DNA of 64,000 nucleotides. Source: Minisyncoccia bacterium. GTDB taxonomy: Bacteria > Patescibacteriota > Minisyncoccia > Phycocordibacterales > CSBR16-119. This document shows positions 13,165 to 16,100 of this stretch, piece after piece (positions within the stretch are counted from its first letter, which is position 1; every line of letters starts with the position of its first letter). Below the pieces are notes generated by a model that did not search any database, was not told the DNA's origin, and worked only from the letters and a program-made list of their open reading frames with translations. The stretch lies in assembly GCA_047619465.1 (NCBI GenBank), contig JBLHJW010000001.1:8911-72910 (forward strand), read 5' to 3'. A program made the translations under genes and the position numbers.

Positions 13165-16100
13165 ATTCGAATAATTAGTACTCCTCTGCTAAATACATTG
13201 CTGTACTTACACATAGAGCCTATCAACCTAGTCATCTCCTAGGATTCTCAAATGATTCCTTATCTTAAAGTTGGCTTCCCTCTTAGATGCTTTCAGAGGT
13301 TATCCATTCCCAACATAGCTACTCAGCAATGCCGCTGGCGCGACAACTGATACACCAGAGGTCAGTCCACTTCGGTCCTCTCGTACTAGAAGCAGATCTT
13401 TTCAAGAATCAACGCCCGCAGTAGATAGGAGACCAACCTGTCTCACGCATTTTGTTTACTCACATTACTATGAGGATCGGACTGTATCATCATCTCTTTC
13501 AAGATGTTCGACGTGCAGTCTCTACGGGTGATTTATGAACTTTATAAAGGGGAGGAGACAATTGCCTCCTCCGAAAGAAAGAACTAGATGCATCAGCAAC
13601 AAAGTCAGGTGAGGACTTAACCTCTACGCCCTATTCGGACTACAGCTTTCGCCACTTATTTGTTGTTTTTCATCCTTTCTTATCCTTACCTTAAAGAACC
13701 TTTATAAAGTTCATAAACCTTCCCTCGGTATTGCCCTTACATTTCTGTAGTGGGGTTTCACCGATATCAGTCGACTTTGCACACAATATTTCTAGAGTGC
13801 GCCGCCGCGATTAGGTTGGTGTGTGCACTTATGAGGTGCACTACTATCTTTTATTATTATTTCTTAGACGAAAAGACTCGATTTTACTTGTATCATTTAT
13901 TTTTTTCAAAAGTTTTTGATGTCTGTTATGTTTGCTATGGTTCAGAATGGTCTGTGAGTTAAAAAGTTAATTTTCACTCCCAGACGGTCTGAACCCAGCT
14001 CGCGTACCTTTTTAATTGGCGAACAGCCAAACCCTTGGGACCTTCTCCAGCCCCAGGATAAGATGAGCCGACATCGAGGTGCCGAACATCGCCGTCGATA
14101 TGAACTCTTAGGCGATACCAGCCTGTTATCCCCGGGGTAGCTTTTATCCGATGATCTCCTGCCGCGTCTAAAGCGTACAGTCGGTTCACTATGTCCTGCT
14201 TTCGCATCTGCTTGTCATGTCCGACTCACAGTTAAGCTAGCTTTTGCCATTACACTATCGGCACGGTTTCCATTCGCGCCTAGCTAACCTTTGAACTCCT
14301 CCGTTACCTTTTAGGAGGAAAGCGCCCCACTCAAACTACCCACCAGATACTGTTCCCTGTCGTTTTTGCCGACAGGGTTAGGGTACACCAAAGCAAAGGG
14401 TGGTATTTCACTGACGACTCCAGTACAACCAAAATCGTACCTTCAAAGTCTCCCACCTATGCTACGCATTACTTCAATGCACCCAATACCAAGCTATAGT
14501 AAAGCTCCCGGGGTCTTTTCGTCTAACTGCGGGTAACCGGCATCTTTACCGGCATTGTATTTTCACCGAGCAGGTCCTCGAGACAGTACCCCAGTCGTTA
14601 CGCCATTCGTGCACGTCGGAACTTACCCGACAAGGAATTTCGCTACCTTAGGACCGTTATAGTTACGGCCGACATTCACCAGGGCTTACACAGCCCAGCA
14701 CTAAAATCGAAATTCTAGCACCATCCGTGTTTAACCTTCTGGCATTGGTCAGGCGTCACCCCCTATACATCCTCTTACGAGTTCGCAGGGAGCTGTGTTT
14801 TTGGTAAACAGTCGCCAGGGTGTCTTTCGCTGCGGCCTATAGATTTCACTATAGGCAAGCCTTATCCCGAAGTTACGGCTGCTATTTTGCCGAGTTCCTT
14901 GAGGACCTCTCACTCGTTCGCCTTGGTCTACTCGACCTGATCACCTGTGTCGGTTTGCGGTACGGTTTCCCGTTTGTTATGCTTAGAAGCTTTTCTTGGA
15001 AGCCTGCTCCACCAAATTTCCCAACCCGAAGGAAGGAATTTTCGCTCCACTTGGACTTAGTGCTGACCGGATTTACCTAATCAACATCCTCATGGTACGA
15101 ACGTAAATCCAATAATACGCTCAGTGTACAAGACTCCGTCCCTCCATCGCACAAACGAGAAGTTATGGAATATTAACCATATGACCATCGGATTCGACTT
15201 TCGTCATCTCCTTAGGACCGACTAACCCTTCGCTGATTATCATTGCAAAGGAAACCTTGATCTTTCGGCGGGAGGGTGTCTCACCCTCCTTGTGGTTACT
15301 TGTGCCAACATTCTTACTTCTGTACGCTCCACCGTGGGTCACCCCTTCGGCTTCAGTGCGGTACAGAATACTCTCCTACCGCTCCACCTGTATCGAGTAC
15401 AGATGAAGCCCCAAAATTCGGTAATATACTTAGCCCCGATTATCTGCGGCGCGGAATCCCTTGATGAGTGAGCTGTTACGCTATCTTTAAAGGATGGCTG
15501 CCTCTAAGCCAACCTCCTCATTGTCAAAGGAACTCTACATCCTTAAGTGCACTTAGTATATATTTAGGGACCTTATTTATGGATCTGGGCTGTTTCCCTT
15601 TTGACCGCAGGAGCTTCGCCCCCTGAGTCTGACTGCCGAGTTATTAACTTCTGGTATTCGGAGTTTGATAGGTTTGGCGAGATTGCTCCCTGTCCAAACC
15701 TTCCAGTGCTCTACCCCCAGAAGGAACACGTCGACGCTAGCCCTAAAGCTATTTCGGAGAGAACCAGCTATTACGAAGTTCGATTGGCTTTTCACCCCTT
15801 ACCACAAGTCATCCCCGCGTGTTGAACGGCGCGTGGGTTCGGGCCTCCACGACCTATTACAGTCGCTTCACCCTGCTCATGGCAAGCTCACTTCGTTTCG
15901 GGTCTTATACATACTGCCAATTATGCGCTATTAACACTTGGTTTCCCTGGGCCTTCGTCGCTTTAACGACTTAGACAAGCAGTATACATAAACTCGTTGG
16001 CTCATTCTTCAATAGGCACGCTGTCGAGGACATAAATGCCCTCTTCAACCTTTTGTAGATATGTGGTTTCAGGTCTATTTCACTCCCCTTCCGGGGTTCT

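What the first reader, a model, noticed from the sequence alone, without database searches (positions are those of the whole stretch)
13448..13982. Intron of ~535 nt without an ORF in the 23S rRNA gene at the I-CreI-type (E. coli ~2593) site
The universally conserved 23S string AGACCGUCGUGAGACAG is split into …GGGTTCAGACCGT and CGTGAGACAGG… by a 535-nt insert. Deleting the insert restores the conserved sequence exactly. The insert follows a U and ends in G, matching the group I splice-site convention. It contains a long internal stem (TTTATGAACTTTATAAAGG / CCTTTATAAAGTTCATAAA) and P7-like GACUG/CGUCG motifs. There is no sense ORF of ≥60 aa, so no homing endonuclease; a reverse-strand 70-aa ORF is presumably spurious. 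rRNA introns are a hallmark of CPR genomes. This site is the classic homing site of LAGLIDADG intron families, so a version without an ORF suggests loss of the endonuclease.
Basis: partly seen in the sequence, partly recalled or inferred. Interest (0 to 1): 0.55.

Follow-up and report, generated by a model that had tools for sequence, protein, structure and literature searches.

The report
ORF-less group I intron in 23S
The 536-base insert is a structurally intact self-splicing (group I) intron without a homing-endonuclease gene, at position 2593 of the 23S rRNA gene of a Patescibacteria (CPR) bacterium; this kind of element is common and already catalogued in that phylum.

Summary
It follows the residue equivalent to E. 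coli U2593 and ends in G. Removing it restores the conserved 23S sequence.

It is a group I intron.
- Rfam RF00028 matches end to end (45.2 bits, E=3e-10), just under the 50-bit curated cut-off.
- All core helices (P1-P10) can be placed.
- On a structure-blind alignment with 27 related introns, 93.9% of cells pair, against 31-44% when partners are slid. 25 pairs show changes on both sides.
- The window intron keeps 84 of 85 highly conserved columns.

There is no sense ORF and no detectable endonuclease remnant. Related introns carry I-CreI-family LAGLIDADG genes in P6, where this one has a 148-nt structured non-coding insert. The ORF-less state is the norm: 75/103 in a species sample and 77/81 in the host clade.

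This is a new member of a known kind (CPR 23S site 2593, Tsurumaki 2024).

One extra finding: most introns of this family, including this one, carry a second element 8-9 nt long. It pairs with 5' exon residues 2581-2589 and co-varies with host rRNA polymorphisms. It is topologically knotted with the canonical 4-bp P1.

The parts
13448..13983 (-). Group I intron, 536 nt. Intron position i corresponds to window coordinate 13984 - i.
   Evidence: The Rfam LSU alignment shows a 536-nt insertion. RF00028 matches full length over 13458-13843.
13984..13987 (-). Last 4 nt of the 5' exon (CCGU; U = E. coli U2593). This is the exon strand of P1.
13988..13995 (-). 5' exon positions -12..-5 (GGUUCAGA, E. 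coli 2582-2589), paired by the intron's second exon-binding element.
13950..13983 (-). 5'-terminal hairpin of the intron (positions 1-34). It ends in ACAG (29-32), which is conserved across the family.
13939..13946 (-). Second exon-binding element UCUGAACC (positions 38-45). It forms 8 Watson-Crick pairs with exon -12..-5.
13810..13938 (-). Linker between the exon-binding element and the internal guide (positions 46-174), A/U-rich. It holds the family motif AGACAUCAA (60-68), a small hairpin conserved in some relatives (111-124) and a GUGCAC hairpin (143-161). Most of it was found only in this intron.
13802..13809 (-). Internal guide sequence. CGCG (175-178) pairs with 3' exon CGUG to form P10. 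GCGG (179-182) pairs with 5' exon CCGU to form P1, with the U-1.G179 wobble.
   Evidence: U.G in 28/28 sequences and P10 98% paired; exon ACGU goes with GCGU, and exon CCGU with GCGG.
13780..13801 (-). P2 hairpin (183-204) with a GAAA tetraloop (192-195).
   Evidence: all 8 P2 pairs show changes on both sides in the family.
13770..13774 (-). P3 5' strand (210-214, UCGAC).
   Evidence: 4 of 5 pairs show changes on both sides.
13725..13764 (-). P4 (220-225 with 254-259), enclosing P5 (230-232 with 248-250) and P5a (236-245, GAAA loop).
13526..13724 (-). P6 domain. It comprises P6 (260-262 with 456-458), the 21-bp P6a stem (265-285 with 434-454) and a 148-nt non-coding insert (286-433) that includes a 9-bp hairpin (412-433). 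Related introns carry their LAGLIDADG gene here.
   Evidence: MFE -63.8 kcal/mol, z = -4.95. Also.
13516..13525 (-). J6/7 (GUAGA, 459-463) and the P7 5' strand (GACUG, 464-468).
   Evidence: These columns are invariant across 28 sequences; the last P7 pair varies between G:C and A:U.
13508..13512 (-). P3 3' strand (472-476, GUCGA). It lies only 3 nt after P7, so there is no P7.1/P7.2.
13491..13506 (-). P8 hairpin (478-493) with a GAAA tetraloop.
   Evidence: all 6 pairs show changes on both sides.
13480..13490 (-). J8/7 (AUGAUA, 494-499) and the P7 3' strand (CAGUC, 500-504).
13459..13474 (-). P9 hairpin (510-525) with a GUAA tetraloop.
   Evidence: 100% paired, and 4 of 5 pairs show changes on both sides.
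13448..13448 (-). Terminal G of the intron (omega-G, position 536).
13444..13447 (-). First 4 nt of the 3' exon (CGUG). This is the exon strand of P10.
13154..16658 (-). Host 23S rRNA gene. The intron is its only large insertion: 3505 nt minus 536 leaves 2969, against a model length of 2925.

Best explanation
The insert is a catalytically intact group I intron with no homing-endonuclease gene. It interrupts helix 93 of the 23S rRNA after U2593, in a Patescibacteria (Paceibacterota-like) genome.

Inferred mechanism, by homology to group I chemistry:
- The core folds into P3-P9. The P4-P6 domain carries a long P6a arm.
- GNRA tetraloops on P2, P5a, P8 and P9 probably make tertiary contacts.
- The 5' exon end CCGU pairs with the internal guide GCGG (179-182) to form a 4-bp P1 with the U2593.G179 wobble.
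- A second element (38-45) pairs with exon residues 2582-2589 and holds the exon.
- An external guanosine attacks the 5' splice site.
- The terminal G536 then enters the G-site in P7. CGCG (175-178) aligns the 3' exon (P10), and the exons are ligated, restoring helix 93.

Without an endonuclease the intron cannot home on its own and is presumably inherited vertically.

What is shown: sequence, structure, covariation and site. What is inferred: that splicing actually occurs, and the role of the second helix.
For: Rfam
- RF00028 matches over the full model (1-253) at E=3e-10.

Covariation on a structure-blind MAFFT alignment of 28 introns
- 93.9% of cells pair, against 31-44% with slid partners.
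- 25 pairs have changes on both sides.
- 0 of 500 shuffles reach the observed values.
- P2, P3, P8 and P9 co-vary strongly.
- The U.G wobble is present in 28/28 sequences, and P10 is 98% paired.

P1 across intron classes
- Exon ACGU goes with guide GCGU in 16/17.
- Exon CCGU goes with guide GCGG in 71/85.

Core integrity and homology
- The window intron agrees with 84 of 85 columns that are at least 90% conserved in 27 relatives. The one change keeps a P10 pair, A:U to G.U.
- nhmmer finds homology to many Patescibacteria L2593 introns, down to E=4e-18.

Site
- The site is U2593.

ORF status
- No sense ORF exceeds 31 aa.
- Relatives carry I-CreI homologues in P6 (E=2e-17 to I-CreI; Pfam LAGLIDADG_1).

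Second exon-binding helix
- 135/177 distinct introns have at least 8 contiguous pairs with their own exon, against 10.8 expected.
- Exon CAGA goes with UCUG in 61/81, and exon CAAA with UUUG in 62/75.
- 91.6% of cells pair on a blind alignment, against 18-55% slid.

Literature
- CPR 23S genes often hold group I introns, including at 2593 (PMC11270868).
Against: - The Rfam score (45.2 bits) is below the curated gathering score (50), so a standard annotation run does not report the intron.
- There is no RNA evidence of splicing.
- The internal guide lies 178 nt from the 5' splice site, which is unusually far.
- In most relatives the 4 exon bases next to the splice site can also pair with a conserved ACAG, placing U-1 opposite an A. 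This competes with P1.
- In this intron a 5-nt insertion separates ACAG from the exon-binding element.
- P2 has two internal mismatches in this intron.
Confidence: 0.9

Rival explanations
1. The intron is a derivative of an endonuclease-carrying mobile intron. The I-CreI-type gene once sat in P6 and was deleted or decayed, as in the homing cycle. The 148-nt P6 insert is what is left.
For: - Related introns carry their LAGLIDADG gene in the same P6 loop, as inserts of about 420 nt.
- Truncated gene remnants are detectable in ORF-less introns of another class: L037, L069, L028.
- P6 inserts come in minimal, intermediate (120-260 nt) and gene-sized classes.
Against: - tblastn of 32 intron ORFs of at least 80 aa from related introns (most of them LAGLIDADG endonucleases) against this intron gives only chance-level matches. 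The best is antisense and contains a stop.
- None of the intermediate-size P6 inserts in the Patescibacteria class shows a remnant.
- The insert is strongly structured (z = -4.95), which fits an RNA arm as well as a relic.
- No close relative with a gene was found.
Confidence: 0.45
2. The ORF-less state is original in this lineage. The intron has been inherited vertically, or spread by reverse splicing, and the P6 and linker inserts are lineage-specific RNA expansions.
For: - ORF-less introns dominate: 75/103 in the species sample and 77/81 in the host clade, where 81 delimited and 18 contig-truncated intron-bearing 23S genes were seen against 11 intronless.
- The exon-binding element tracks host rRNA polymorphisms, as expected for long co-residence with the host gene.
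Against: Endonuclease genes of one family occur scattered among related introns at the same site. This is the usual signature of repeated gain and loss.
Confidence: 0.45
3. The insert is not removed by self-splicing. Either it is retained in the rRNA (as reported for the Simkania 23S intron, title cited in PMC11270868), or it is excised by host RNases to leave a fragmented 23S, or it is a dead ribozyme.
For: - There are no RNA data.
- The Rfam score is below the gathering threshold.
- The guide is unusually distant, and a helix competes with P1 at the 5' splice site.
Against: - The core is intact: 84/85 conserved columns are kept.
- The U.G wobble, P10 and the terminal G are all present.
- The site lies inside helix 93 at the peptidyl-transferase centre. 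A retained 536-nt insert or a break there would be expected to be harmful (inference).
- The intron was found in 81 fully delimited and 18 contig-truncated host-clade 23S genes, against 11 intronless, with a conserved core, which implies selection on the ribozyme.
Confidence: 0.06

Closest known systems
CPR/Patescibacteria 23S rRNA insertion sequences at position 2593 ('23IS12', Tsurumaki et al. 2024, PMC11270868)
   Same: Same phylum, same gene and same site. That survey classed 45% of 23S insertions as group I introns with Rfam, and reports LAGLIDADG_1 genes as predominant in insertions at 2593.
   Different: This copy has no ORF and scores below Rfam's gathering cut-off. Its 129-nt linker and 148-nt P6 insert were not found in any other intron sampled. 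In the passages of that paper I read, I saw no description of helices, of the guide sequence or of a second exon-binding helix.
Cyanobacterial L2593 introns (Synechococcus C1/C9, Thermosynechococcus; Haugen et al. 2007, PMC1995217) and, from my own knowledge, the Chlamydomonas chloroplast Cr.LSU intron that encodes I-CreI
   Same: Same insertion site after U2593. The endonuclease genes found in relatives of the window intron are I-CreI homologues.
   Different: Those introns are about 745 nt with a gene and have a roughly 65-nt P7.1/P7.2 extension (PMC1995217). The window intron has only 3 nt between P7 and the 3' strand of P3, and no gene. A class with P7.1/P7.2-like hairpins and exon ACGU does occur at this site in other bacteria, for example L035.
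Compact bacterial group I introns of the Azoarcus/cyanobacterial tRNA type (subgroup IC3; comparison from memory, not tested)
   Same: Short exon pairing in P1 (4 bp here). GNRA tetraloops on P2 and P9. Similar J6/7-P7 (GUAGAGACU) and J3/4-P4-J4/5 (AUAUCGGUGAAACC) strings.
   Different: Sits in rRNA rather than tRNA. Has a long P6a arm with an insert, a 178-nt stretch between the splice site and the guide, and a second exon-binding helix. Subgroup covariance models were not available here.
P(-1)/P1 alternative pairing of the Tetrahymena pre-rRNA 5' exon (from my own knowledge)
   Same: The exon bases next to the 5' splice site have two mutually exclusive partners. One of them is the catalytic P1.
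   Different: In Tetrahymena the competitor is another exon segment. Here it is an intron segment (ACAG plus UCUGAAYCC) that co-varies with the exon.

Membership tests
Group I intron (Rfam RF00028) | Conserved core of P3-P8, with the P4-P6 and P3-P9 domains and the P3/P7 pseudoknot. | tested here: met
   Full-length model alignment. All helices placed. 93.9% of cells pair on a blind alignment and 25 pairs have changes on both sides.
Group I intron (Rfam RF00028) | Score at or above the curated gathering threshold (50 bits). | tested here: not met
   45.2 bits, E=3e-10. Absent from the gathering-threshold scan. The 155-nt P6 insertion and the unmodelled 5' region lower the score.
Group I intron (Rfam RF00028) | 5' splice site after a U that forms a U.G wobble with an internal guide sequence (P1). 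| tested here: met
   U-1.G179. U.G in 28/28 relatives. Exon and guide change together between intron classes.
Group I intron (Rfam RF00028) | Terminal guanosine, and P10 pairing of the 3' exon next to the guide. | tested here: met
   G536. CGCG (175-178) pairs with CGUG. P10 is 98% paired in the family.
Group I intron (Rfam RF00028) | Guanosine-dependent self-splicing. | not testable with these tools
   Needs an in vitro transcript assay or RNA-seq.
   nhmmer E values down to 4e-18. 84/85 conserved columns shared. Site confirmed.
   UCUGAACC at 38-45 forms 8 pairs. The feature is present in 135/177 introns.
Endonuclease-carrying mobile group I intron (I-CreI type) | Intron-encoded LAGLIDADG open reading frame. 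| tested here: not met
   Longest sense ORF is 31 aa. No remnant by tblastn. The antisense 70-aa ORF has no Pfam match.
Subgroup IA3-type L2593 introns (cyanobacteria, chloroplast) | P7.1/P7.2 extension in the P7 region. | tested here: not met
   3 nt between P7 and the 3' strand of P3, 1 nt before P8, and about 37 nt from P7 to its partner strand. This compares with 96 nt and two extra hairpins in L035.
RNase III-processed intervening sequence (IVS) of 23S rRNA | A simple extended stem-loop at helix 25 or helix 45, with no ribozyme core. | tested here: not met
   The site is helix 93 and a ribozyme core is present. IVS sites are as described in PMC11270868.

The most novel reading that the evidence does not exclude
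Patescibacterial L2593 introns, this one included, recognise their 5' exon in two separate pieces.
- The first is the canonical 4-bp P1 with the internal guide.
- The second is an 8-9-bp helix between an intron element near the 5' end and 23S residues 2581-2589. These are the peptidyl-transferase ring residues G2583, U2584 and U2585.

The order of the strands makes the two helices a pseudoknot.

In most members the second helix can run on through a conserved ACAG to bury the splice site opposite an A. That would give an 'off' conformer that must exchange with P1.

Such an arrangement could clamp the exon between the two splicing steps. It could also couple intron removal to folding of the peptidyl-transferase centre.

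I found no description of this in the papers I could read. My literature search was limited.
Probability: 0.45. Interest if true: 0.5.

Novelty: new member of a known kind. Interest (0 to 1): 0.3.

Why it matters
For annotation:
- The intron explains the 3.5-kb 23S gene.
- It shows that the default Rfam cut-off misses real rRNA introns in CPR genomes.
- Gene callers place a spurious 77-aa ORF across the splice site.

For biology, it adds one more ORF-less intron to a very common class. The samples here indicate that at site 2593 the endonuclease-free state is the rule in this clade (77/81).

The exon-binding helix that co-varies with the host rRNA is a testable structural feature. It may bear on how these introns keep a short P1 functional, and on whether splicing is tied to assembly of the peptidyl-transferase centre in organisms with few ribosome-biogenesis factors.

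Tried and rejected
1. Endonuclease remnants. tblastn of 32 intron ORFs of at least 80 aa from related introns (most of them LAGLIDADG endonucleases) against the intron gave only chance matches. The best is antisense and crosses a stop. The sense 'RAIPREG' hits are conserved P4-P6 RNA read as protein. The same search did find true remnants in other introns, so the method works.
2. The long helix (exon -12..-1 with intron 30-45) as the catalytic P1. Rejected because it puts U-1 opposite an A and has no family-wide P10. Short-leader relatives have the splice site in a loop of that helix. GCGG/GCGU just upstream of P2 gives the U.G wobble, P10 and exon-guide covariation.
3. Metagenome scan with a P7-P3-P8 pattern specific to this intron: 0 matches. 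A viral-contig scan for the splice junction also gave 0 matches.
4. Close relatives of the peripheral inserts. None were found among 81 delimited host-clade introns or the GTDB set. Only a short hairpin motif (UUUUCGUCUA) recurs.
5. Copies of the inserts elsewhere in the window (a mobile mini-element): none.
6. Other Rfam families inside the insert: only chance-level miRNA and snoRNA hits.
7. Antisense 70-aa ORF and the 77-aa ORF crossing the splice site: no Pfam match. Both are treated as spurious.
8. Intron-less allele of the same organism. The three contigs that carry the neighbouring gene are the same strain. They either contain the identical intron or stop short of it.
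Full report
OBSERVATION

Rfam places a bacterial 23S rRNA gene on the minus strand at 13154-16658 and a 5S gene at 12481-12589. In the 23S alignment the model runs through ...CUGGGUUCAGACCGUC, then 540 nt where the model has 4, then GACAGGUUGGUC. That is a single 536-nt insertion.

Reading the sequence:
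- the 5' exon ends ...AGACCGU at window 13984;
- the insert is 13983 (C) to 13448 (G);
- the 3' exon starts CGUGAGACAG at 13447.

BLAST of the last 120 exon bases against E. coli puts the last base at the T of gaacgt|cgtgag. That is position 2596 of a 2907-nt rrl copy. In the standard 2904-nt numbering (my own knowledge) this is U2593, with A2602 nine bases downstream.

The quoted inverted repeat is real. No sense ORF in the insert exceeds 31 aa. The 70-aa antisense ORF has no Pfam match.

WHAT IT IS

At a permissive threshold, Rfam's group I intron model matches 13458-13843 over its whole length (positions 1-253). The score is 45.2 bits, E=3e-10, with a 155-nt insertion in P6. This is below the 50-bit gathering score, which is why the default scan does not list it.

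The helices can all be placed (intron numbering; window = 13984 - i):

| Element | Intron positions | Note |
|---|---|---|
| P10 guide | 175-178 | pairs with 3' exon CGUG |
| P1 guide | 179-182 | pairs with 5' exon CCGU |
| P2 | 183-204 | GAAA loop |
| P3 | 210-214 with 472-476 | |
| P4 | 220-225 with 254-259 | |
| P5 / P5a | 230-250 | |
| P6 | 260-262 with 456-458 | |
| P6a | 265-285 with 434-454 | 21 bp |
| P6 insert | 286-433 | non-coding |
| J6/7 and P7 | 459-468, partner strand 500-504 | |
| P8 | 478-493 | GAAA loop |
| J8/7 | 494-499 | |
| P9 | 510-525 | GUAA loop |
| terminal G | 536 | |

RELATED INTRONS AND COVARIATION

I scanned one genome per species (GTDB) for 'G + CGTGAGACAGKTYGGTC', that is, any intron ending in G at this site. 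Most are Patescibacteria MAGs, with some Acidimicrobiaceae, Omnitrophica and others.
- 105 inserts could be delimited (103 of them over 100 nt and taken as introns).
- Their lengths run from 213 to 1034 nt and are bimodal.
- nhmmer shows that many are homologous to the window intron in both core halves, with E values down to 4e-18.

I cut out the variable P6 interior and aligned 28 of them with MAFFT, blind to structure. I then counted my helices on that alignment:
- 93.9% of cells form standard pairs, against 31-44% when the 3' partners are slid by 1-3 columns.
- 25 of 49 pairs have changes on both sides.
- No shuffle out of 500 reaches the observed values.
- P2 (8/8 pairs), P3 (4/5), P8 (6/6) and P9 (4/5) co-vary.
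- P7 and P4 are nearly invariant, with one co-varying pair each.
- The splice-site U.G is present in 28/28.

The window intron agrees with 84 of the 85 columns that are at least 90% conserved in the other 27. The single change (A176G) turns a P10 A:U into G.U. The ribozyme core therefore looks intact and under selection.

THE GUIDE SEQUENCE

Two candidates exist.

Candidate 1 lies near the 5' end. UCUGAACC (38-45) pairs with exon GGUUCAGA, and CAGAC (30-34) can pair across the splice site. That places U-1 opposite an A.

Candidate 2 lies just upstream of P2. CGCG|GCGG (175-182) gives a 4-bp P10 and a 4-bp P1 with the U.G wobble.

The second is the catalytic guide, for three reasons:
- It is nearly invariant as CACGGCGG in relatives.
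- Relatives with short leaders have no other option.
- It changes with the exon between intron classes. Exon ACGU goes with GCGU in 16/17, and exon CCGU with GCGG in 71/85.

THE SECOND EXON-BINDING HELIX

The first element is nevertheless real.
- Among 177 distinct L2593 introns (GTDB plus metagenome sets), 135 have at least 8 contiguous pairs between exon -13..-5 and an element in the leader. Shuffled exon 9-mers give 10.8.
- In a table that does not select on pairing, exon CAGA hosts carry UCUGARYY in 61/81 and exon CAAA hosts carry UUUGARYY in 62/75.
- I also aligned 129 leaders blind to structure, chosen only by guide distance. There 91.6% of cells pair, against 18-55% slid. At exon -6 there are 56 A:U, 48 G:C, 14 G.U and only 7 mismatches. 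At -8 there are C:G, U:A and A:U.

The strand order is exon a, exon b, a', then b'. This makes the helix and P1 a pseudoknot.

In most members the four bases 5' of the element are a conserved ACAG, pairing with exon -4..-1 as C:G, CxA, G:C, U:A. That would extend the helix over the splice site and exclude P1. In the window intron, ACAG (29-32) is separated from the element by ACCAU.

I read the helix as an exon clamp, possibly with an alternative 'closed' conformer. This is inference.

THE ORF QUESTION

In related introns with ORFs, the gene lies between the 5' and 3' strands of P6, as an insert of about 420 nt. One such protein (L105) matches I-CreI at 1.7e-17 over its full length, and also I-MsoI and I-CvuI. 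It is Pfam LAGLIDADG_1.

The window intron has 148 non-coding nucleotides at that place. They fold strongly (-63.8 kcal/mol, z = -4.95) into the long P6a stem, a 9-bp hairpin and a small multi-branch.

tblastn with 32 ORFs of at least 80 aa from related introns (most of them LAGLIDADG endonucleases) finds nothing credible in the window intron. The same search recovers truncated genes in three ORF-less introns of another class.

- Fully delimited L2593 introns: 81.
- Introns truncated by a contig end: 18.
- Intronless 23S genes: 11.
- Of the 81 delimited introns, 77 have no long ORF and one has an intact LAGLIDADG gene.

In the species sample 75/103 have no long ORF. None of these introns shares the window intron's peripheral inserts.

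Loss of an endonuclease gene is thus plausible but unproven. ORF-less is the ordinary state.

HOST

The 3' exon is closest (88%) to a Candidatus Paceibacterota MAG among the named loci. A JGI metagenome contig (sample 3300053698) is the same organism at 99.87% identity, with an identical intron.

COMPARISON WITH WHAT IS KNOWN

Tsurumaki et al. 2024 (PMC11270868) found insertions in 82% of CPR 23S genes. They classed 45% of them as group I introns and reported LAGLIDADG_1 genes as predominant in insertions at 2593. This intron is a further example.

The cyanobacterial L2593 introns (PMC1995217) have a gene and a P7.1/P7.2 extension. The window intron has 3 nt between P7 and the 3' strand of P3. 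An exon-ACGU class in my sample (for example L035) has two extra hairpins there. At least two structural classes of intron therefore occupy this site in bacteria.

The core strings and GNRA loops recall the compact Azoarcus-type introns. That comparison is from memory and untested.

VERDICT

This is a real, intact, ORF-less group I intron at 23S U2593 in a Patescibacteria genome: a new member of a known and common kind. The one feature that may be new is the co-varying second exon-binding helix of this intron family.

Noticed in passing
window 13939-13946 with 13988-13995; family-wide in L004-L243: A second exon-binding element (consensus UCUGAAYCC) pairs with 23S residues 2581-2589 and co-varies with host rRNA polymorphisms at exon -6 and -8. 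Together with the canonical P1 it forms a pseudoknot.
   Followed up: yes
L004-L243 leaders; window 13952-13955 (intron 29-32): The four bases 5' of that element are a conserved ACAG. They pair with exon -4..-1 as C:G, a conserved CxA mismatch, G:C and U:A. This is an alternative to P1 that buries the splice site opposite an A. Its role is unexplained.
   Followed up: partly
window 13954-13958 (intron 26-30, CUCAC): In this intron only, the 3' arm of the 5'-terminal hairpin is complementary to 3' exon GUGAG (+2..+6). This is a possible second P10-like pairing that is not seen in relatives.
   Followed up: no
window 13974-14207 (-); L001 8125-8358: A 77-aa ORF lies inside the 23S gene and crosses the 5' splice site. 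It was called as a gene on the JGI contig and has no Pfam match. It is a spurious gene call in rRNA.
   Followed up: yes
window 1-64000: ARAGORN finds no tRNA gene in the whole 64 kb. The 23S-5S pair has no 16S gene or spacer tRNAs next to it, so the rRNA genes are unlinked.
   Followed up: no
L070 and L076, about 66 nt downstream of the 2593 site: Both 23S genes diverge from all others directly after CUAGUA, in the sarcin-ricin loop region, into sequence containing group-I-like strings (ATAACGGTGRAGTC). This is probably a second intron at a nearby site.
   Followed up: no
L115 (GTDB locus), intron start: The delimited 'intron' begins with a copy of CGTGAGACAG, the first 10 nt of the 3' exon. 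This is either an insertion at a different nearby site or a target duplication.
   Followed up: no
L002 positions 1-35 (about window 13396-13430): A Logan contig of the same strain begins 17 nt downstream of the 3' splice site, and its first 35 nt carry the mismatches. This is an assembly break next to the intron boundary and may reflect population heterogeneity.
   Followed up: no
L037, L069, L028 (Acidimicrobiaceae and other Actinomycetota MAGs): ORF-less L2593 introns of the exon-ACGU class still contain truncated LAGLIDADG coding sequence, up to 57 aa at 86% identity to an intact relative. These are direct examples of endonuclease-gene decay at this site.
   Followed up: partly
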